Shown one piece after another: positions 1 through 10,125 of a stretch of DNA of 10,125 nucleotides. Every line of letters starts with the position of its first letter. The first letter of the stretch is position 1. Origin of the DNA: a virus; the UHGV virus genome UHGV-0288291. The stretch is one strand, 5' to 3'. The translations under genes and the position numbers were made by a program. Under the pieces are notes generated by a model that searched no databases, was not told the DNA's origin, and saw only the letters and a program-made list of their open reading frames with translations.

Positions 1-118
1 AACCGGGCGCGAAAGGTGTCGGCTCGTTGAAGGACGGCACCCACCAGTAAACATCCTCCTCCACGCCACGGCGGGTATATTTTGCCGGTGAGGTTTCCAG
101 TCTGATGATCTTACCGGT
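1..118 (-). repeat. Duplicated fragment of the portal-gene internal region (copy of 333..450)
   Basis: Read by eye, 1..118 is identical to 333..450. The minus-strand sense encodes ...TGKIIRLETSPAKYTRRGVEEDVYWWVPSFNEPTPFAPGS. The copy starts at the window edge and may extend further left. Confidence 0.7.
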
Positions 119-270
119 AACCTGTTTCTCTATGCCCCACAGGGGAAAGCCGACGGCATTAAAATTATCCCGCTCAGTGAAGTGGCGACGAAGGACGATT
201 TTTTTAATATCAAAAAAGCCAGCGCCGTTGACCTGCTGGATGCGCACCGCATCCCCTTTCAGTTGATGCT
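119..270 (+). repeat. Duplicated fragment of the portal-gene 3' region (copy of 659..810)
   Basis: 119..270 matches 659..810 with 3 mismatches (188 vs 728, 228 vs 768, 240 vs 780). It encodes NLFLYAPQGKADGIKIIPLSEVATKDDFFNIKKASA(V/A)DLLDAHRIPFQLM. Homology ends abruptly at 270/271. Confidence 0.7.
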
Positions 271-570
271 GAGATATTCCGGCAGGCCGTACAGCTCCTG
301 ATTAATATCCGGCTCCAGCAGGTGAAACACGGAACCGGGCGCGAAAGGTGTCGGCTCGTTGAAGGACGGCACCCACCAGTAAACATCCTCCTCCACGCCA
401 CGGCGGGTATATTTTGCCGGTGAGGTTTCCAGTCTGATGATCTTACCGGTGGTGCTGTAACGCTTTTCCAGAAACGCATTACCGAACACCAGAAAATCCA
501 GCACAAAGCGGCTGAAATCCTGTTGCGAAAGCCACGGATGCGGGATAAATGTCGAGGCCAGAATATTGAT
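271..570 (-). pseudogene. Q: Portal protein (gpQ-like) internal fragment, inverted relative to the 3' part of the same gene
   Basis: Clean minus-strand reading frame (part of track ORF 259..648) encoding INILASTFIPHPWLSQQDFSRFVLDFLVFGNAFLEKRYSTTGKIIRLETSPAKYTRRGVEEDVYWWVPSFNEPTPFAPGSVFHLLEPDINQELYGLPEYLS. It lies head-to-head with the plus-strand portal 3' part at about 570/571. The in-frame stop at 259-261 falls inside the adjacent duplicated segment. Confidence 0.6.
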
Positions 571-979
571 GTACGTCACCGATGCCGTGCAGGACCGCAA
601 CGATATCGAAATGCTTCGCGAAAACATGGTGAAGTCGAAAGGCCGCAATAACTTTAAAAACCTGTTTCTCTATGCCCCACAGGGGAAAGCCGACGGCATT
701 AAAATTATCCCGCTCAGTGAAGTGGCAACGAAGGACGATTTTTTTAATATCAAAAAAGCCAGCGCCGCTGACCTGCTGGACGCGCACCGCATCCCCTTTC
801 AGTTGATGGGCGGCAAGCCGGAGAACGTCGGGTCGCTGGGTGATATTGAGAAAGTGGCAAAGGTCTTTGTCCGCAATGAGCTTATCCCGCTACAGGACAG
901 GATCCGCGAGATAAACGGCTGGCTCGGTCAGGAGGTCATCCGCTTTAAAAACTACTCACTGGACACTGACAACGGCTGA
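569..979 (+). CDS. Q: Portal protein (gpQ-like) C-terminal portion, 136 codons; 5' part of the gene not colinear
   Basis: Track ORF 566..979 starts on a TTG; the first ATG is at 569. It is followed by an intrinsic terminator and then cos about 170 bp downstream, the position of Q in P2. The translation (MYVTDAVQDRNDIEMLRENMVKSKGRNNFKNLFLYAPQG...) matches my recollection of the P2 Q C-terminus; this needs alignment to confirm. Confidence 0.65.
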   Translation: MYVTDAVQDRNDIEMLRENMVKSKGRNNFKNLFLYAPQGKADGIKIIPLSEVATKDDFFNIKKASAADLLDAHRIPFQLMGGKPENVGSLGDIEKVAKVFVRNELIPLQDRIREINGWLGQEVIRFKNYSLDTDNG

Positions 980-1148: not shown

Positions 1149-1167
1149 GTGCTTTCCCCGCCTCGCC
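1149..1167. other. cos site: P2-type 19-nt cohesive-end sequence
   Basis: The plus strand reads GTGCTTTCCCCGCCTCGCC, the reverse complement of GGCGAGGCGGGGAAAGCAC, which I recall as the P2 cohesive end. It sits between the portal stop and the A-side variable locus, as in P2. Confidence 0.65.
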
Positions 1168-1451
1168 CGCCCGCTTCGTGGGGCGGTTTTAATGCAGTTG
1201 CATAGATACTATGGATCCGCACCAGTCCTGACCGCACGCAGCCTGAACGGACATCCCCAACGCATGCAAAAACATTCACTTGTTGCATGCATAGCTTTTT
1301 AAGTACGCCATACCGCAACTGTACATTTTTAAGCAATTGGCAACCTTAAAAAATTTACATTGCTTTCAAGACCTTATCATCCGTAGTCTCTGTTTTTTAC
1401 TTTGAGCTACATCAATAAAATCTCAAACATGTTTAATGCAAAGCCCTTGTT

Positions 1452-1505
1452 ACACAACATAGAATGTATGTCTAGAAACAACGACATACTATATGTTGTG
1501 TTTTT
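1452..1505 (+). other. Long imperfect hairpin followed by a T5 run (terminator- or attenuator-like RNA structure)
   Basis: ACACAACATA (1452-1461) pairs with TATGTTGTGT (1492-1501), and an inner TATGTC (1467-1472) pairs with GACATA (1483-1488). TTTTT follows at 1501-1505. The element is AT-rich. Confidence 0.4.
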
Positions 1506-1567
1506 CCGGCTCTCTGTTCGGTGATATGCCAAATCACTTTGCGTTTAAACAGAGCATTATTTCAGGG

Positions 1568-1582
1568 CAAGACTTCGCTCAA
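1568..1582 (+). repeat. 15-bp direct repeat CAAGACTTCGCTCAA, copy 1
   Basis: Exact 15-mer also present at 1832..1846. The two copies bracket the micro-ORF and its terminator. Confidence 0.5.
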
Positions 1583-1645
1583 AAGTCATTCCACCTAAGA
1601 AGCGCATATACCGGTGGAAGTTGCCCTCTACTTACAGGAGGCAAT

Positions 1646-1759
1646 ATGAAGAAATGCTATTACTGCATTCTCGTTCTGGCCCTCTTTGGCTATCCAAACG
1701 GTAGTCCGAGTGGTTTGTCAGTAAACGTCAGTAATATCAATGTCAGCATTATGCTTTAA
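1646..1759 (+). CDS. Hypothetical 37-aa hydrophobic peptide (MKKCYYCILVLALFGYPNGSPSGLSVNVSNINVSIML) in the cos-A variable locus
   Basis: Consensus Shine-Dalgarno AGGAGG (1636-1641) 4 nt before the ATG at 1646; a strong intrinsic terminator follows immediately. N-terminal hydrophobic stretch. Convergent with gene A. The track's 88-aa version starts inside a hairpin with no SD. Confidence 0.4.
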   Translation: MKKCYYCILVLALFGYPNGSPSGLSVNVSNINVSIML

Positions 1760-1771
1760 TATGCTTCAAAC

Positions 1772-1801
1772 AAAAAAACCACCTGCCAGGGTGGTTTTTT
1801 T
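1772..1801. terminator. Bidirectional rho-independent terminator
   Basis: AAAAAAA, ACCACC, TGCCAG, GGTGGT, TTTTTTT. The A-tract upstream and T-tract downstream let it serve both the plus-strand micro-ORF and the minus-strand A operon. Confidence 0.7.
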
Positions 1802-1831
1802 GCGCCCATCATCAATACGATGAAAGACTGA

Positions 1832-1846
1832 CAAGACTTCGCTCAA
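1832..1846 (+). repeat. 15-bp direct repeat CAAGACTTCGCTCAA, copy 2
   Basis: Exact match to 1568..1582. Confidence 0.5.
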
Positions 1847-2061
1847 GACGAATTATGCGTCGACATAAGGTTACCCGCAATGATTTTATTAGACTAAATG
1901 GATGGCCTTTTATGACCCGGATCAAACGGCTGTCCTTACCGACATGCTAGTCACTCAATAGCATTTAGCCTTCTAATTCAGCATGCTATTGACCTTCTGC
2001 TGCCCCATAACTGCTCCGCATAAGCCATTCAATGCCATATCAAATCACGTTGTGTTTTTAC

Positions 2062-4338
2062 TCAAATGGGTAACGAGAACCCCGGCCACTCATCAGCAAC
2101 CGGATACGTGAATTTTTTCCCGTCATAATTTACGGTCGCGCCACGCGCCAGCGCCTCAAGCTCCCATCGTTGCGGCCTGATACCGTTCTGAGCGAGGTCA
2201 ACGCGGATACGGGTAATTTGCAATCGTTCAGACCTGGTCAGTCTGGCAGATGGTGCAATTTCATGCGGTTTTAACGGGATTCCGTTTCTTTGCTGACGAT
2301 TTGGTGTTCTCAGTCCGTGTTTTAATGCGCCCCTGAGCGCCATCACGACCTCCGGGTCACTCCATTCGATAACACCGTCATCTACCAGATTAAGCACTGC
2401 TGCGGCGTGCTCAGAAGGTGTGGGAGCCGGTAACGAAGTATCACCACCGGTGAGCTTTCCACAGTTATTGACAGGACTCCGAGGCGCGGCGATGCCGCTT
2501 TTTAAAGTCAAAGGCTCAACGACCGGAACTTTCGGCACAATGCGCCAGTCCGTCGTTCTGGTGATATGAATATGACGCGCGCCGAGATGCGGCGCGTAAA
2601 TGCCGACCACTCTCTCGACTTCTTCCTCGTACTCGTTAACGTCATCCGACAGACTACGGGCGACCCTGACAGTCTGACAATCGCGCGGGACATTTGCCCC
2701 GCCCTGCGCGCTGATATACAGCGCAAAATCACCACTGTCTGCGGCGGCGCGTGCAGCCTCGACGCGCTCGTCAAACTCATCAGCAATGCTGACGCCGCGA
2801 GGCAATTTGCGTAGTTCACGGTAAGCCCCCATTGTCGGCAGGCCAACCGTTTTAAATTGCGGAATGCGCCACGTTGACGCCCATGCGGTAACAGCCGCTG
2901 CAGTGTCTTTCAGCGGCCTGCCGGTGTCGTTATCGAGCTGACCATCCAGTGCATAGCCGTCGATGTTTTTTGAAATGTATTTCGCGATATATCCCGCAGC
3001 ACCGCCCCGGTTAAGGTGTTTTGCCTGAAAACGGTTTCGCGCGGCTCCTCTTTCGTCGCCATCCTCTTTGAGCGCATAGCGACGCATGATTTCGATAATC
3101 TGGTTACGCTGGCGTGGATGACAAAAAAGCATCATATGCCAGTGCGGCGTTCCGTCGTGGTGTGGCTCGACGACTCGCAAACCGTAGACCTGTAAATCAT
3201 TATCCTTGAATGCCGTGCGCATCAGGCTCCAGATACGGCAGAGATAACGCTGCGCATCCTTTGGATTAAATGCCTCATCGTTCCAGCCGTGATTAAGCTG
3301 AACGGTTTTACTTTCGCCTTTTCCGACCTGACGTGTCGGGTGATACTTTGACGGCGCGGTCAGCGTGATAAACATCCCCACATCACCCTCTGCGGCGGCG
3401 TAACGCTCAATACCGGCAATGGTGTTCATCAGCTCCATCCGGCGAATTTCAGGATTAGAAATACTGCCCATCACCTTACTGATAAGGTCGATGCGCTCGC
3501 CGGTTTCCCTGTTTTCAAGGTCACACGATTTAAGAAATTCCAGATTTGCCTGGCGGCGCGCACGCACATCACGAATGGCGTGTTTACTGGCATAAGGAGA
3601 ACGGTCTTTATTGACCTCCCCGACAGCTATCAGTAACGCCTCATGCCAGCGCATACGCTGGCCTTTAAGCTGACTAATCCACCACTCATCGTTAAACAGG
3701 CGGGCAATGGCAGAATATGCCTGCCTCGTGGTCATCTGTCCTTTACGGTATTTTTTCCAGTAGAGCGGGGAAATATTGAAAGCACGTGCAGCGCCAGCAA
3801 CATGACCATACAGGTGAGCCTGCGCCTCATCCGTAAACAGCGATTCTTTTTCACCATGCGCATCAACCCATGCATCGCAGAGTTCCTCATACATCATGAA
3901 AAGCTGCGATGAGATACGGGCGGCAAACTTTTTCAGCTCCTTGTCATTCATTCCCGGCAGGCGCGCATAGTGGTCACGCTCTGCCAGAAACAGCAACGAC
4001 GCGTCGGTGTTCATTTCATGGCGCTGATTCACACGCTCAATGCGCGGCCATAAACGACGCTGAAAAGTAGATGTGAGGAAATAAAACCCGTGCACCGGGC
4101 TTTTATTGCGCCGGATGTAGTCATAGCGTGAAGTAAACAGCGAGCGCAAAAAGTAAGGCAGGCGGTTAATCGTGGATAAAACACCTTGCACCTGACGCAT
4201 CTCGTCACGTGTAAGAGGTCTTTCGCGCCCGACAGCCTCGCGTGGCGCGTTCCATGCATAAGCACCGGTAAACGCCTTACCGGTGCCTGCGGTAAATGCT
4301 GACGGAGGGACAAAACGCCCGGAGGCTTTAACGGCCAT
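2062..4338 (-). CDS. A: Rolling-circle replication initiator (P2 gpA-like HUH endonuclease)
   Basis: 758-aa product. The first ATG is at 4338; the track start at 4380 is a TTG. HUH motif HWHMM is encoded at 3130-3144. The GYIAKYIS tyrosine pair (Y-x3-Y) is encoded at 2971-3000, typical of phiX174/P2-type initiators. Its start overlaps the end of the upstream small ORF. Confidence 0.9.
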   Translation of the reverse strand: MAVKASGRFVPPSAFTAGTGKAFTGAYAWNAPREAVGRERPLTRDEMRQVQGVLSTINRLPYFLRSLFTSRYDYIRRNKSPVHGFYFLTSTFQRRLWPRIERVNQRHEMNTDASLLFLAERDHYARLPGMNDKELKKFAARISSQLFMMYEELCDAWVDAHGEKESLFTDEAQAHLYGHVAGAARAFNISPLYWKKYRKGQMTTRQAYSAIARLFNDEWWISQLKGQRMRWHEALLIAVGEVNKDRSPYASKHAIRDVRARRQANLEFLKSCDLENRETGERIDLISKVMGSISNPEIRRMELMNTIAGIERYAAAEGDVGMFITLTAPSKYHPTRQVGKGESKTVQLNHGWNDEAFNPKDAQRYLCRIWSLMRTAFKDNDLQVYGLRVVEPHHDGTPHWHMMLFCHPRQRNQIIEIMRRYALKEDGDERGAARNRFQAKHLNRGGAAGYIAKYISKNIDGYALDGQLDNDTGRPLKDTAAAVTAWASTWRIPQFKTVGLPTMGAYRELRKLPRGVSIADEFDERVEAARAAADSGDFALYISAQGGANVPRDCQTVRVARSLSDDVNEYEEEVERVVGIYAPHLGARHIHITRTTDWRIVPKVPVVEPLTLKSGIAAPRSPVNNCGKLTGGDTSLPAPTPSEHAAAVLNLVDDGVIEWSDPEVVMALRGALKHGLRTPNRQQRNGIPLKPHEIAPSARLTRSERLQITRIRVDLAQNGIRPQRWELEALARGATVNYDGKKFTYPVADEWPGFSLPI
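2468..2487 (-). promoter_or_regulatory. Candidate replication origin / A-protein nick region inside gene A
   Basis: The plus strand reads TTGACAGGACTCCGAGGCGC, the reverse complement of GCGCCTCGGAGTCCTGTCAA, which I recall as part of the P2 ori nick region located within the A coding sequence. This is recollection only and needs alignment. Confidence 0.35.
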
Positions 4339-4603
4339 ATGAGCCAAAAGCCTCTGAACAACGCTTGCTGAGTTGCTCAACCTGCGCGTTTAAATCAGCA
4401 AAAGATTTTGCGCTTCCGGTCAGAATATCGTGATGCATCAGGCCGGAAACGAGCTGGCCTAATTTCGGGTAATAACCAACCACCGCCAGCCATTCCTGAC
4501 CGGCGTTTTTACCGCTTTCCGCTCTCTTTTTCTCGTGGAGAATAAACTGAAAGCTGTCACTGGTAACGACATAACGTTTGCCAATTTCAATACGAATACT
4601 CAT
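4328..4603 (-). CDS. Hypothetical protein (P2 orf83 position), 91 aa
   Basis: ATG at 4603 overlaps the upstream stop (ATGA); SD-like GGAGAA upstream. Immediately precedes A. Confidence 0.6.
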   Translation of the reverse strand: MSIRIEIGKRYVVTSDSFQFILHEKKRAESGKNAGQEWLAVVGYYPKLGQLVSGLMHHDILTGSAKSFADLNAQVEQLSKRCSEAFGSYGR

Positions 4604-6786: not shown

Positions 6787-6855
6787 CTCTATATAAAGAT
6801 TACATTTTCACCATTTGCTACCAAGATGGTGAATACAGCGCCGGAGGGCTTTCTT

Positions 6856-7836
6856 ATGGCAATTAAGAAGCTCGATGATGGTCGCTATGAAGTGGACATT
6901 AGACCTCGCGGTCGCGACGGAAAACGCATCCGCAGGAAATTCGAAAGAAAAGCTGAAGCACTAGCATTTGAGCGATACACAATCGCCAATGCCAGTCAGA
7001 AAGAATGGGGAGGCCAGCGAGCAGACCGCCGGACTTTGAGTGAGTTGCTGGACATCTGGTGGAAATATCACGGGCAAAACCACGAGCATGGAACAAAAGA
7101 GTTTAATCATCTACTCAAAACCATCAGCGGCATAGGTGATATACCAGTGAGCAGGATGAGCAAAAGGGCTTTGATGGATTATCGTTCCATGCGACTACGT
7201 GATGGTATCAGTGCCGCAACGATAAACCGTGACATGTACCGATTATCCGGCATGTTCACAAAATTAATTCAATTGGATGAATTTTCCGGGCAACACCCAA
7301 TTCACGGACTGCCGCCACTGGCGGAGGCCAACCCTGAAATGACGTTCTTGGAAAAAGCAGAAATCGAAAAACTGTTAAATGTTTTGGCTGGTGATGACTT
7401 ACTTGTCGCGCTTTTATGTCTGAGCACCGGAGGAAGATGGACGGAAGTTGCCACGCTAAAACCAGCACAGATTACAAATTGCAGGGTTACCTTCCTGAAA
7501 ACCAAAAACGGTAAAAAGCGAACCGTGCCGATTTCTGAGGAACTGGAGAAAAAAGTTAAAGAGGAGGCCAGCGCCAAATTATTCAAAGTTGATTATGAGA
7601 AATTTTGCGGGATTTTACGCAGAGTGAAACCTGATATACCACCCAATCAGGCAACCCACATCCTGCGGCATACATTCGCAAGCCATTTCATGATGAATGG
7701 GGGCAATATAATCGCACTGCAACAGATTCTGGGACATGCGAGCATTCAGCAGACGATGGCCTATGCGCACCTTGCGCCTGACTATCTGCAAAATGCCGTC
7801 GCTCTGAATCCACTAAAAGGCGGAGTGACGTTATAA
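6856..7836 (+). CDS. int: Tyrosine integrase (P2 Int-like), 326 aa
   Basis: The first ATG with an SD (GGAGGG, 6843-6848) gives MAIKKLDDGRYEVDIRP...; the track start at 6826 is upstream of this. C-terminal catalytic region HILRHTFASHF...LGHASIQQTMAYAHL carries the R/H-x-x-R/Y signature. Confidence 0.9.
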   Translation: MAIKKLDDGRYEVDIRPRGRDGKRIRRKFERKAEALAFERYTIANASQKEWGGQRADRRTLSELLDIWWKYHGQNHEHGTKEFNHLLKTISGIGDIPVSRMSKRALMDYRSMRLRDGISAATINRDMYRLSGMFTKLIQLDEFSGQHPIHGLPPLAEANPEMTFLEKAEIEKLLNVLAGDDLLVALLCLSTGGRWTEVATLKPAQITNCRVTFLKTKNGKKRTVPISEELEKKVKEEASAKLFKVDYEKFCGILRRVKPDIPPNQATHILRHTFASHFMMNGGNIIALQQILGHASIQQTMAYAHLAPDYLQNAVALNPLKGGVTL

Positions 7837-8914: not shown

Positions 8915-10078
8915 TCACTCATCATCTTCTGTTTCGTACTCCACATCAGAAAGCCTGACCTCAAGCTCCAGGGACGTCGTGAAGCCGCTATTATTCAGAA
9001 AATGTGTCACCTTAGTGATTGTCCAGTCCTGCTCGTCTATGACGCGCTTAAAGCCTGACACTTTAACCGGTGTTTCCGTGTAAATATCTGCCCGACCGGT
9101 AGCCAGGCTGATGGAGAACTCCGCAACGCCCCGTTGCAGTTTATCCCACTTCGCCTGAGCGGCGCGCATGGCCTGCGCTTTCGTGGCATATACCGTGGTC
9201 AGGGCAAAAACATTGTCAGCCTCACCGGCCATATATTCACCTTCGCGCGCTTCCGGTACTTTTGGCGCTTTCTTCTGCCTGACCGGTTTCGCTTTTGGGT
9301 GCTCCAGTGCGCGCAGGTGTTTTTCTTTCTTTTTGCGTTTCAGTTTTATCTTCTGCTTTTGCGGCTTCGGGTCTTTGGTGTGAAGCCACTTTGCCGTTAC
9401 GCCGGTATAGGCTCCACGGTCAGCAATCGCAAAATGATGACGGTCGCCGTCGCTGCGGGTGATGGTAATCTGCGGGATTTTTTTACCGCTGGCCGTCACC
9501 CCCTGCCCCGCTTTGAGAAACAACAGTTTTCCCATTTTTACCGACACCTCACCGCCGTTGCGTTCAGCAAGGCGGGTCAGGAATTTTGCATCAGACTCCT
9601 GCGACTGGTCGATGTGCGGGATTTTAATTCCGGCCAGTGACGGAGCGACACTGGCTTCCAGCCTGTTACGGGAGGCTATCGCCTCAACAATCGCACCGAG
9701 CGTGGTGTCATGCCAGGAGCCTTCACGGCGGGAATTGAGCGTCCCGCGAAAATCTGCACTCCGGGCGCGGATGGTGACCACATCCGGTGCGCCCCGGTGT
9801 TCAACCTCATCAACGGTAAATTTCCCTTTGCATACCAGAGCAAAACCTTTCCAGCCTATATACACCGTCAGGACAGCGCCACGAACCGGCAGCCCGACCT
9901 GCCCGTCGGCATCGTTCAGTTCAATATCAAGCTGGTCAGCCTCAAAGCCCCGGTTATCCGTCAGGGTCATGCTCATCAGACGGTCGCTGATATTGCCGGT
10001 AATATCCCTGCTGTCGAGCATCAGCATGTAATCCGGCGTCAGCGTACTGCCTGCATCAAATGTCAGCGCATCCAGCAT
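8915..10078 (-). CDS. D: Phage tail protein D (P2 gpD-like), 387 aa
   Basis: Same strand and immediately upstream of ogr, as in P2. Length matches P2 gpD. Start ATG overlaps the upstream stop (TAATG). Confidence 0.85.
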   Translation of the reverse strand: MLDALTFDAGSTLTPDYMLMLDSRDITGNISDRLMSMTLTDNRGFEADQLDIELNDADGQVGLPVRGAVLTVYIGWKGFALVCKGKFTVDEVEHRGAPDVVTIRARSADFRGTLNSRREGSWHDTTLGAIVEAIASRNRLEASVAPSLAGIKIPHIDQSQESDAKFLTRLAERNGGEVSVKMGKLLFLKAGQGVTASGKKIPQITITRSDGDRHHFAIADRGAYTGVTAKWLHTKDPKPQKQKIKLKRKKKEKHLRALEHPKAKPVRQKKAPKVPEAREGEYMAGEADNVFALTTVYATKAQAMRAAQAKWDKLQRGVAEFSISLATGRADIYTETPVKVSGFKRVIDEQDWTITKVTHFLNNSGFTTSLELEVRLSDVEYETEDDE

Positions 10079-10125
10079 TATCCCGCCCCCATCATACCTG
10101 TGAATCTGGTCGCCAGACTGCCGGC
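10078..10125 (-). CDS. 3' end of the upstream tail gene (gpU-like), truncated by the window
   Basis: Open minus-strand frame from the window edge encoding ...AGSLATRFTGMMGAG, with stop TAA at 10078-10080 overlapping the D start. Identity inferred from P2 gene order only. Confidence 0.4.
   Translation of the reverse strand, partial: AGSLATRFTGMMGAG

What the first reader, a model, noticed from the sequence alone, without database searches (positions are those of the whole stretch)
1168..2061. cos-to-A variable locus carries only a micro-ORF module instead of tin/old-type cargo
In P2 the interval between gene A and cos holds orf91, tin and old (several kb) and is a known hotspot for anti-phage cargo. 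Here the interval is about 0.9 kb. Its only convincing coding unit is a 37-codon ORF (1646-1759) with a consensus AGGAGG SD and a strong terminator, convergent with A and embedded in about 570 bp of AT-rich DNA (about 1290-1860) that contrasts with GC-richer flanks. The peptide has a hydrophobic N-terminal half (CYYCILVLALFGY) and a polar Ser/Asn/Val-rich tail. It could be a small membrane-active peptide (toxin-like or exclusion factor) or a minimal, possibly RNA-based, cargo. I do not recognise it as any named system.
Basis: partly seen in the sequence, partly recalled or inferred. Interest (0 to 1): 0.65.

Follow-up and report, generated by a model that had tools for sequence, protein, structure and literature searches.

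The report
Unannotated small-toxin/antisense-RNA module in P2-like phage
The short gap between the packaging site and the replication gene of this P2-like phage holds a compact, unannotated two-gene module: a 37-residue membrane-type peptide and a convergent small antisense RNA, built like a type I toxin-antitoxin system and driven by a copy of the host's anaerobic ribonucleotide-reductase (nrdD) promoter; the same module sits on hundreds of Klebsiella and Salmonella plasmids.

Summary
The interval is AT-rich. The 37-codon ORF (1646-1759) has an AGGAGG Shine-Dalgarno (SD) sequence and a perfect bidirectional terminator (1771-1802).

Homologues occur in P2-like phages, about 400 Klebsiella, Salmonella and Enterobacter plasmids, Kluyvera, Citrobacter and metagenomes. 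Comparison shows one conserved module (about 1345-1893):
- an mRNA promoter homologous to the E. coli nrdDG promoter, with two FNR boxes 31 bp apart and NrdR-like boxes;
- a 174-nt structured 5'UTR with covarying helices and a paired SD;
- an ORF under purifying selection;
- a convergent minus-strand sRNA gene (about 1844 to 1772). Its -35 and -10 hexamers are invariant and its spacer varies.

The sRNA 5' end is complementary to the 5'UTR through a 15-nt direct repeat (1568-1582 and 1832-1846). In a distant Salmonella plasmid member, both repeat copies carry the same two substitutions.

My best reading is a new family of type I toxin-antitoxin-like modules. Its layout resembles par (Fst/RNAII) and its logic resembles TimP/TimR, but it matches neither family. 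It is not the variable cargo. It is a fixed A-proximal element, and other cargo such as retron Ec48 inserts beside it. Toxicity, transcription and regulation remain untested.

The parts
1149..1167 (.). cos cohesive-end 19-mer (reverse complement of P2 GGCGAGGCGGGGAAAGCAC). It is the left landmark, not part of the module.
   Evidence: it matches the P2 cosR end
1168..1291 (.). cos-flanking backbone shared with many P2-like phages. Extra cargo in relatives is inserted just to its right.
   Evidence: 76-98% identity in about 69 phage records
1402..1415 (+). FNR-2-like box TTGAGCTACATCAA (9/10 to TTGAT-N4-ATCAA), identical to the upstream FNR site of the E. coli nrdDG promoter
1433..1446 (+). FNR-1-like box TTAATGCAAAGCCC, 31 bp from FNR-2 as in nrdDG
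   Evidence: The pair with 31-bp spacing is present in all 14 family members checked.
1452..1501 (+). Two NrdR-box-like 16-mers: ACACAACATAGAATGT (1452-1467, 13/16) and ACATACTATATGTTGT / ATACTATATGTTGTGT (1484-1501, 12-14/16). They overlap the -10 TAGAAT (1460-1465) and the predicted start site.
   Evidence: NrdR box architecture from PMC12176259
1472..1801 (+). Predicted toxin mRNA (about 330 nt): 174-nt 5'UTR, ORF and terminator. The start site is inferred from the -10 position by homology with nrdDG.
   Evidence: MFE -94.6 kcal/mol, z = -3.6.
1512..1554 (+). 5'UTR helices P1 (1512-1518 / 1548-1554) and P1b (1520-1524 / 1534-1538), with compensatory changes in relatives
1568..1582 (+). Direct-repeat copy 1, CAAGACTTCGCTCAA: predicted sRNA target in the 5'UTR, 64-78 nt upstream of the AUG
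1589..1619 (+). 5'UTR hairpin P3 (TTCCACC 1589-1595 / GGTGGAA 1613-1619), kept through compensatory changes
1621..1641 (+). Anti-SD GCCC(U) (1623-1627) paired with SD AGGAGG(C) (1636-1641). 1621-1627 can alternatively pair with 1564-1570 (P2ext).
1646..1759 (+). 37-codon ORF MKKCYYCILVLALFGYPNGSPSGLSVNVSNINVSIML: basic N-terminus, 11-residue apolar core, GYP break, Ser/Asn-rich tail with alternating hydrophobic residues
1771..1802 (.). Bidirectional intrinsic terminator shared by the mRNA and the sRNA, nearly invariant across the whole family (one loop-base change, T to G, in the Enterobacter and Citrobacter members); it probably also ends the gene A operon
1772..1844 (-). Predicted antisense sRNA (about 73 nt): 5' seed GAGCGAAGUCUUG, stem-loop SL1 (variable sequence, conserved hairpin, more stable on this strand) and terminator
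1832..1846 (-). Direct-repeat copy 2; its reverse complement is the 5' seed of the sRNA
1852..1892 (-). sRNA promoter: -10 CATAAT (1857..1852), variable 17-nt spacer, -35 TTGCGG (1880..1875), conserved A/T block (1884-1892)

Best explanation
Window 1345-1893 is a self-contained module of the type I toxin-antitoxin kind.

**Shown by comparison**
- A plus-strand mRNA of about 330 nt carries a 37-codon ORF under purifying selection.
- Its 174-nt 5'UTR folds into covarying helices, and the Shine-Dalgarno (SD) sequence is paired with an upstream anti-SD.
- A convergent minus-strand gene has a conserved sigma-70-type promoter, a 5' seed, a covarying stem-loop and the same bidirectional terminator.
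- The sRNA seed is complementary to 13-18 nt of the 5'UTR.
- The two RNAs are also fully complementary over the terminator, about 30 nt.

**Inferred**
- The sRNA is made constitutively. It pairs with the 5'UTR 64-78 nt upstream of the AUG.
- This pairing keeps the mRNA untranslated, by blocking a standby or activating element, by triggering RNase III cleavage, or both, as in tisB/IstR-1, zorO/OrzO and timP/TimR.
- The peptide is a signal-anchor-type inner-membrane protein that is harmful when over-made.
- The mRNA promoter is a homologue of the host nrdDG promoter. mRNA synthesis should therefore rise under anaerobiosis (FNR) and when NrdR leaves its boxes because dATP is low.
- The biological role is probably maintenance of the phage or plasmid, or a stress-gated growth arrest. 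An anti-phage role is possible but untested.
For: 1. **Coding.** The ORF is intact at 37-39 codons in every homologue. Variable sites by codon position are 19/12/31, and pN/pS is 0.16-0.43. The SD and ATG are conserved.
2. **sRNA gene.** The -10 CATAAT and -35 TTGCG(G/T) are invariant with a variable spacer in 12 aligned sequences and in L076. Each member has its own SL1 hairpin sequence. SL1 is more stable on the minus strand (summed energy -104.6 against -60.5 kcal/mol).
3. **Pairing.** The 15-nt repeat is conserved in members that were found by peptide similarity alone. In the distant Salmonella plasmid member the core is AAGGCTTTGCTC in both copies, instead of AAGACTTCGCTC. In L047 and L067 both copies share GTGAC.
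4. **5'UTR structure.** 96.9% of cells are paired, against 40-52% for slid controls. Seven pairs have double-sided changes, against 0-2 in controls, and 0/500 shuffles reach the observed values. The SD is mostly paired in partition functions.
5. **Promoter.** Window 1346-1447 matches the treC-nrdD intergenic region of all 5426 E. coli genomes. All family promoters align with it. FNR box pairs 31 bp apart occur in all members. FNR and NrdR control of nrdDG is documented (PMC2892513, PMC12176259).
6. **Distribution.** The module is found on mobile elements only: P2-like phages, about 400 IncF-type plasmids, and two paralogous copies on one contig. This is typical of type I toxin-antitoxin loci.
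7. **Peptide character.** It resembles TimP: a short apolar core after a basic N-terminus and a polar Asn/Ser tail.
Against: - No expression data were available. Both start sites, the sRNA itself and the peptide are predictions.
- Toxicity is untested, and TimP itself is not toxic at native levels (PMC7667032).
- The apolar core (11 residues) is short for a membrane-spanning helix. The AlphaFold model has low confidence (pLDDT 55).
- The minus-strand -35 is weak (3/6 to consensus), and the consensus promoter scan did not list this promoter.
- The seed is invariant in most members, so covariation rests on one strong case (L076) and one or two weaker ones.
- NrdR-like boxes are weak in most Klebsiella plasmid members. 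In the window their spacing is 32-34 bp rather than 31.
- How pairing 64-78 nt upstream blocks translation is unknown. A simple 'target blocked, SD closes' switch was not supported.
Confidence: 0.68

Rival explanations
1. The architecture is the same (small protein plus antisense sRNA), but the peptide is not a toxin. It would be a small membrane or periplasmic protein with a specific job, such as superinfection exclusion, modulation of a membrane protein, or an anaerobic or nucleotide-stress function. The sRNA would simply tune its level.
For: - The peptide looks like an uncleaved signal anchor with a conserved polar tail (GYPxGSxSGxS...) rather than a simple hydrophobic pore-former.
- Purifying selection acts on the tail as well.
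- TimP is non-toxic at native levels.
- The locus is a P2 lysogenic-conversion hotspot (PMC9122126).
Against: - The tight multi-layer repression (paired SD, long structured UTR, dedicated antisense RNA, shared terminator) is the hallmark of toxic small proteins.
- The module travels alone on plasmids in varied contexts.
- No partner gene is conserved next to it.
Confidence: 0.2
2. The module is mainly a transcriptional insulator or terminator, or a decaying remnant between the A operon and the hotspot. The ORF and the 'sRNA' would be incidental.
For: - The bidirectional terminator is the first terminator downstream of A (one search found none between 1860 and 2061).
- PGAP annotates nothing here.
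Against: - The ORF shows a codon-position bias and low pN/pS.
- The SD and ATG are conserved.
- Both the UTR and SL1 show covariation.
- The whole unit is conserved on plasmids that have no gene A.
Confidence: 0.05
3. The conserved block at 1828-1892 is a plus-strand promoter (CTGACA-17-AATTAT). It would drive an RNA antisense to the 3' end of gene A rather than a minus-strand sRNA. The direct repeat would then be a recombination or protein-binding site.
For: It is the only site reported by the consensus promoter scan (9/12).
Against: - Its -35 is not conserved (CTAGCA, CAGGCA, and CGGGTA in L076).
- Conservation stops about 30 nt downstream of its would-be start site on plasmids.
- It explains neither the G-U strand bias of SL1 nor the concerted change of both repeat copies.
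Confidence: 0.04

Closest known systems
par (Fst / RNA II) of Enterococcus faecalis pAD1 and par-like loci
   Same: Convergent promoters, a shared bidirectional intrinsic terminator that gives complementary terminator stem-loops, a DNA direct repeat that gives a second region of RNA-RNA complementarity, an intramolecular helix that sequesters the SD, and a small peptide of 33-37 residues (PMC7472228).
   Different: - There is one repeat, not two. It lies 64-78 nt upstream of the AUG, not over the translation initiation region.
- The peptide has no Fst/Ldr match, no PxxxG motif and no charged tail.
- The hosts are enterobacterial, not Gram-positive.
- The toxin promoter is nrdD-like.
TimP / TimR (ryfA locus) of Salmonella and E. 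coli
   Same: A peptide of about 38-41 residues with a basic N-terminus, a CxC-I-V/L-L apolar segment that resembles an uncleaved Sec signal, and an Asn/Ser-rich tail. The mRNA is about 300 nt with a long structured 5'UTR and a sequestered ribosome-binding site. The sRNA 5' end pairs far upstream in the 5'UTR (PMC7667032, PMC11228461).
   Different: - There is no detectable homology: BLASTP found nothing, hhalign probability is 7% over 11 residues, and Rfam RyfA did not match.
- TimR is divergent and upstream, whereas here the sRNA is convergent and downstream with a shared terminator.
- TimP/TimR is chromosomal core, whereas this module is on phages and plasmids.
tisB/IstR-1, zorO/OrzO and dinQ/AgrB (enterobacterial trans-type type I systems)
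   Same: A short seed pairs in a long 5'UTR well upstream of a structurally closed ribosome-binding site. Toxin transcription is gated by stress (LexA in tisB and dinQ).
   Different: - The toxin and sRNA sequences are unrelated. The Rfam OrzO-P hit is weak (E=1.4) and driven by the terminator.
- The gene layout differs.
- The predicted stress input is FNR/NrdR instead of SOS.
E. coli nrdDG promoter
   Same: About 110 nt of sequence homology, including both FNR sites (31 bp apart), the -10 and NrdR-type boxes.
   Different: - It drives a 37-codon ORF instead of nrdDG, and homology stops after the boxes.
- In the phage alleles the NrdR-like boxes are shifted by about 10 bp and form a near-perfect inverted pair.

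Membership tests
Type I toxin-antitoxin systems (general definition) | Small (<60 aa) hydrophobic or membrane-type protein gene | tested here: met
   The ORF is 37 aa, under purifying selection, with an apolar N-terminal core.
Type I toxin-antitoxin systems (general definition) | Adjacent or overlapping gene for an antisense sRNA complementary to the toxin mRNA | tested here: met
   The promoter hexamers, seed, SL1 and terminator are conserved. The seed and target changed together in L076. This is a sequence-level prediction only.
Type I toxin-antitoxin systems (general definition) | Toxin mRNA with a structured 5'UTR that closes the ribosome-binding site | tested here: met
   The helices covary, and the SD is paired with probability of about 0.7-0.97 in most members.
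Type I toxin-antitoxin systems (general definition) | The protein is growth-inhibitory when expressed, and the sRNA neutralises it by blocking translation or mRNA stability | not testable with these tools
   This needs induction and rescue experiments.
par / Fst-RNAII family | Convergent promoters with a shared bidirectional terminator | tested here: met
par / Fst-RNAII family | Pair of direct repeats (DRa, DRb) whose pairing covers the toxin translation initiation region | tested here: not met
   There is a single 15-nt repeat, 64-78 nt upstream of the AUG. A second contact between SL1 and the initiation region is inconsistent across members.
par / Fst-RNAII family | Toxin belongs to the Fst/Ldr superfamily (Pfam Fst_toxin or Ldr_toxin; PxxxG motif; charged C-tail) | tested here: not met
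   No Pfam hit at E<=10; no such motif in the alignment.
TimP/TimR (RyfA, Rfam RF00126) | mRNA matches the RyfA covariance model | tested here: not met
   No RyfA hit at E<=10 in 900-2300.
TimP/TimR (RyfA, Rfam RF00126) | Peptide homologous to TimP | tested here: not met
   BLASTP gave no alignment. hhalign probability is 7.3% over 11 columns.
TimP/TimR (RyfA, Rfam RF00126) | sRNA encoded divergently upstream, with its 5' end pairing to the 5'UTR | tested here: inconclusive
   The 5'-end-to-5'UTR pairing logic is shared, but the gene is convergent and downstream.
Known anti-phage defence systems of the P2 cos-gpA hotspot | Protein matches a defence-system model | tested here: not met
   PADLOC gave 0 families for three family peptides. 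PHROGs hits have E of only 0.2-0.3.
FNR/NrdR-regulated nrdDG-type promoters | Sequence homology to the nrdDG promoter, with two FNR sites 31 bp apart | tested here: met
FNR/NrdR-regulated nrdDG-type promoters | Two NrdR boxes separated by 15-16 bp | tested here: inconclusive
   In the window the boxes score 13/16 and 12-14/16, with 32-34 bp start-to-start. They are good in Kluyvera, L047 and L067, and weak in most Klebsiella plasmid copies (PMC12176259).
FNR/NrdR-regulated nrdDG-type promoters | Anaerobic induction and NrdR repression in vivo | not testable with these tools
   This needs reporter fusions in fnr and nrdR backgrounds.

The most novel reading that the evidence does not exclude
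The module is a nucleotide-pool- and oxygen-gated suicide or arrest switch. It captured the host nrdDG promoter, so toxin mRNA outruns its antisense RNA only in anaerobic cells whose dATP falls and NrdR leaves its boxes, for example during replication stress or infection by another phage. That would give P2-like prophages and IncF plasmids a minimal (about 550 bp) abortive-infection or addiction device that every current annotation and defence-finder pipeline misses.
Probability: 0.15. Interest if true: 0.85.

Novelty: new variant of a known kind. Interest (0 to 1): 0.62.

Why it matters
- **An "empty" hotspot is not empty.** The P2 cos-gpA hotspot is screened for defence systems by protein-gene content. 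This locus looks empty to such screens, to PGAP and to Rfam, yet it carries a conserved two-RNA module.
- **It is widespread.** The module is present in about 2.8% of complete E. coli genomes (150 of 5426) and on about 400 clinical Klebsiella, Salmonella and Enterobacter plasmids.
- **The layout would be new for enterobacteria, if confirmed.** It would add a type I toxin-antitoxin family with a par-like layout; I found no enterobacterial example of that layout, in a limited literature search.
- **The regulatory input would be new.** It would be the first such module, to my knowledge, whose toxin promoter is a copy of a ribonucleotide-reductase promoter. That links toxin expression to oxygen and dNTP status.
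- **It is easy to test.** The unit is about 550 bp and its seed and target are well defined, which suits compensatory-mutation experiments.

Tried and rejected
- **Rfam** on 900-2300 at E<=10 gave only weak hits driven by the terminator (RNAI, Phe_leader, OrzO-P), all far below the gathering scores.
- **Protein libraries.** Pfam and NCBIfam gave nothing, PADLOC gave nothing, and PHROGs gave only E of about 0.3.
- **Genome contigs.** The first codon-degenerate pattern found nothing. The second found only Kluyvera and Citrobacter.
- **Metagenome repeat-pattern scan.** It gave two false positives, L063 and L065, which are unrelated repeats.
- **Viral scan for the Salmonella-type repeat** gave 0 hits.
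- **88-aa ORF from ATG 1493.** Rejected, because relatives have an in-frame stop.
- **The 'hairpin' at 1451-1500 as an RNA element.** Reinterpreted as two NrdR-like DNA boxes.
- **TimP homology.** Not supported.
- **Structural-switch model.** The idea was that sRNA pairing frees the anti-SD to close the SD. P2ext and P4 are both supported by pair counts and overlap by 3 nt. But a constrained partition function shows the SD mostly paired with or without the target blocked, so the model is not adopted.
- **Second sRNA contact (SL1 with the translation initiation region).** Significant in Kluyvera, L043 and L039, but not in the P2DC1 allele, Enterobacter or L076, so not claimed.
- **Plus-strand promoter-like site at 1828-1856.** Rejected because its -35 is not conserved.
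- **Remnants of P2 orf91 or tin in the interval.** None found.
The three-sequence run gave low confidence.
- **Literature string searches** for the peptide and the seed sequence gave 0 papers.
Full report
**1. Setting and check of the observation**

The window is a P2-like (Peduovirus) genome read in the reverse of the P2 map.
- The portal C-terminus is at 566-979(+).
- The cos 19-mer is at 1149-1167.
- Replication gene A is at 2062-4380(-) (Pfam Phage_GPA, E=8e-124).
- An integrase lies at 6826-7836(+) and gpD at 8915-10078(-).

- GC falls to 0.34-0.45 between about 1200 and 1900, against 0.52-0.60 outside.
- The ORF 1646-1759 has 37 codons, with AGGAGG at 1636-1641.
- At 1771-1802 there is a perfect 13-nt inverted repeat, CAAAAAAACCACC/GGTGGTTTTTTTG, around a 6-nt loop. 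This is a bidirectional intrinsic terminator.

P2 itself carries orf91, tin and old here. It shares only 1149-1196 and the end of A with the window.

**2. Is the interval the variable island?**

Only partly.
- The first 124 nt after cos (1168-1291) are backbone shared by about 69 P2-like phage records.
- The rest (1298-2061) is found in only three phage records, at 86-88% identity.
- It occurs in 150 of 5426 complete E. coli genomes, with nothing annotated there by PGAP.
- In IMG/VR and metagenome loci there are two alleles, at about 99% and about 85-88% identity.
- In all of these loci the block sits exactly 213 nt from the end of A.
- The distance from cos varies. It is 401 nt in every window-type allele. 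In the other allele it is 495, about 2030 or about 3057 nt, reflecting 0-3 extra hypothetical genes. One E. coli prophage has retron Ec48 there.

So the block is an accessory element fixed next to A in one sub-lineage. The truly variable cargo is inserted to its left.

**3. The ORF is a real gene with relatives on plasmids**

- The peptide matches no Pfam, NCBIfam or PADLOC model and gets only E of about 0.3 in PHROGs.
- An exhaustive HMMER search of 1.8 billion representatives found seven relatives.
- tblastn found unannotated 37-codon homologues (62-68% identity) on about 390 large Klebsiella plasmids and two Enterobacter plasmids.
- A 39-codon relative at about 30% identity occurs on Salmonella, Leclercia and Citrobacter IncF plasmids.
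- Further copies occur in Kluyvera georgiana, Citrobacter freundii and metagenomes.
- One contig carries two paralogous copies 2.9 kb apart.
- Among 11 distinct 37-codon sequences, variable sites by codon position are 19/12/31. Pairwise pN/pS is 0.16-0.43.
- The 88-aa in-frame extension that gene callers sometimes pick (P0001) is broken by a stop codon in relatives.

The peptide has four parts:
- a basic N-terminus;
- an 11-residue apolar core (CYYCILVLALF);
- a conserved G-Y-P break;
- a Ser/Asn-rich tail with alternating hydrophobic residues.

A low-confidence AlphaFold model (pLDDT 55) gives a helix at 3-14 and a beta hairpin at 25-34.

**4. A convergent antisense sRNA gene**

The interval contains an exact 15-nt direct repeat, CAAGACTTCGCTCAA, at 1568-1582 and 1832-1846.
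- Copy 1 is in the 5'UTR of the ORF.
- Copy 2 lies beyond the terminator.
- Just to the right of copy 2, on the minus strand, sits TTGCGG (1880..1875), a 17-nt spacer, then CATAAT (1857..1852).

In alignments of the phage alleles with plasmid, Kluyvera and metagenome members:
- both hexamers and an upstream A/T block are invariant;
- the spacer varies;
- the repeat is invariant in both copies, and the terminator is invariant apart from one loop base in the Enterobacter and Citrobacter members.

A minus-strand transcript starting near 1844 and ending near 1772 would be about 73 nt long. It would consist of:
- a 5' seed, GAGCGAAGUCUUG, complementary to the 5'UTR;
- a stem-loop (SL1);
- the terminator.

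SL1 has a different sequence in each lineage but always forms a hairpin. Thanks to G-U pairs it is much more stable as minus-strand RNA than as plus-strand RNA (summed energy -104.6 against -60.5 kcal/mol).

The key test is the distant Salmonella plasmid member (L076).
- It keeps the promoters, the ORF and the identical terminator.
- Its repeat core is AAGGCTTTGCTC in both copies, so both copies carry the same two substitutions.
- L047 and L067 likewise share GTGAC at the 5' flank of both copies.
- One paralogue in L062 has a single difference that would give a G-U pair.

The members found by peptide similarity were not selected for the repeat, so its conservation there is informative.

**5. 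The 5'UTR is structured**

RNAalifold and explicit pair counts on 11 sequences support these helices:
- P1 (1512-1518 / 1548-1554);
- P1b (1520-1524 / 1534-1538);
- P3 (1589-1595 / 1613-1619);
- a helix joining the 5' flank of the target to 1621-1627 (P2ext);
- an anti-SD:SD helix (1623-1627 with 1636-1641).

Overall, 96.9% of cells are paired, against 40-52% when the partners are slid. Seven pairs show double-sided changes, against 0-2 in controls, and 0/500 shuffles reach the observed values.

The full mRNA folds with z = -3.6. In partition functions the SD is mostly paired.

I tested the idea that sRNA pairing frees the anti-SD to close the SD. Blocking the target did not change SD accessibility consistently, so I do not adopt that model. 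A second contact between SL1 and the initiation region is significant in some members but not in others.

**6. The mRNA promoter is a copy of the nrdDG promoter**

- Window 1346-1447 matches all 5426 E. coli genomes at about 79% identity. The matched site is the treC-nrdD intergenic region.
- Every family member aligns with the K-12 nrdD promoter over about 110 nt.
- The window has the FNR-2 box TTGAGCTACATCAA (1402-1415) and the FNR-1 box (1433-1446) 31 bp apart. All 14 members checked have such a pair.
- The -10 is TAGAAT (1460-1465).
- Two NrdR-box-like 16-mers lie at 1452-1467 and 1484-1501, scoring 13/16 and 12-14/16.
- The inverted repeat they form is what looks like a hairpin at 1451-1500.
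- Homology to the chromosome ends after the boxes.

That this phage promoter responds in the same way is an inference. NrdR-like boxes are weak in most Klebsiella plasmid copies.

**7. Comparison with known systems**

- **par of pAD1.** The layout is that of par: convergent promoters, a shared bidirectional terminator, a direct repeat giving a second complementary region, and a closed SD (PMC7472228). But the peptide is not an Fst/Ldr protein, there is only one repeat, and it lies far upstream of the initiation region.
- **TimP/TimR.** The logic and the peptide character are closest to TimP/TimR (PMC7667032, PMC11228461). But BLASTP, hhalign and the RyfA covariance model show no relationship, and TimR is divergent and upstream.
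- **Literature.** No paper in the searchable library contains the peptide or the seed sequence.

I therefore file it as a new family of type I toxin-antitoxin-like modules. It is a new variant of a known kind, and toxicity and regulation are still to be shown.

**8. Verdict**

- Confidence that the mRNA/ORF/sRNA architecture is real is about 0.85.
- Confidence that it works as a type I toxin-antitoxin is about 0.68.
- Interest is 0.62.
- The most novel reading still open is an oxygen- and dNTP-gated abortive or addiction switch. I give it a probability of about 0.15.

Noticed in passing
window 1-808: Two scrambled duplications. 1-118 is identical to 333-450, and 119-268 is 98% identical to 659-808. 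The portal gene is left as a 137-aa C-terminal ORF (566-979), with minus-strand ORFs upstream of it. This looks like an assembly artefact or a rearrangement at the contig end.
   Followed up: partly
window 1262-1290: Inverted repeat GCATGCAAAAA-N7-TTGTTGCATGC, exactly at the boundary between the conserved cos flank and the module. This is where relatives carry extra cargo. Its function is unknown.
   Followed up: no
L004 2536-4424 (E. coli AH21I008): A relative carries retron Ec48 (reverse transcriptase plus membrane effector) between the module and the portal gene. In the same prophage a PAPS-reductase-domain gene follows A.
   Followed up: no
L001 326-1502; L002 258-2433: Other relatives carry two or three unannotated hypothetical genes (159-313 aa) between cos and the module. 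These are candidate hotspot cargo and were not analysed.
   Followed up: no
L062 (metagenome contig Ga0268256_1001162), reverse-complement coordinates 6895-7173 and 9816-10095: Two paralogous copies of the module lie 2.9 kb apart in the same orientation. In one copy the target differs from its own sRNA seed by a change that would give a G-U pair.
   Followed up: partly
L076 1250-1750 (Salmonella Newport plasmid pCFSAN000924): A distant sub-family with a 39-aa peptide, MDRRDCMCLFILTLISHLITGQESWMVYLNHISLTVQFY. It has a different 5'UTR sequence, a co-varied repeat and the identical terminator, and lies next to an Rpn-family nuclease gene.
   Followed up: yes
window 1771-1802 and homologues: The terminator hairpin and its A and T runs (about 33 nt) are invariant, apart from one loop base in the Enterobacter and Citrobacter members, across members whose peptides are only about 30% identical. 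That is more than termination alone would seem to need. The sRNA loop CUGGCA contains a YUNR-type motif, which hints at a loop-loop first contact as in par.
   Followed up: no
window 1493-1759; P0001: Public gene calls sometimes annotate an 88-aa protein that starts at ATG 1493. This extension exists only in the window-type allele and is probably a mis-call.
   Followed up: yes
L044 57-156 and about 385-470 (E. coli K-12 sseA-ryfA region): The K-12 timPR locus holds a second TimR-like sequence (terminator plus seed region), in addition to the annotated timR.
   Followed up: no
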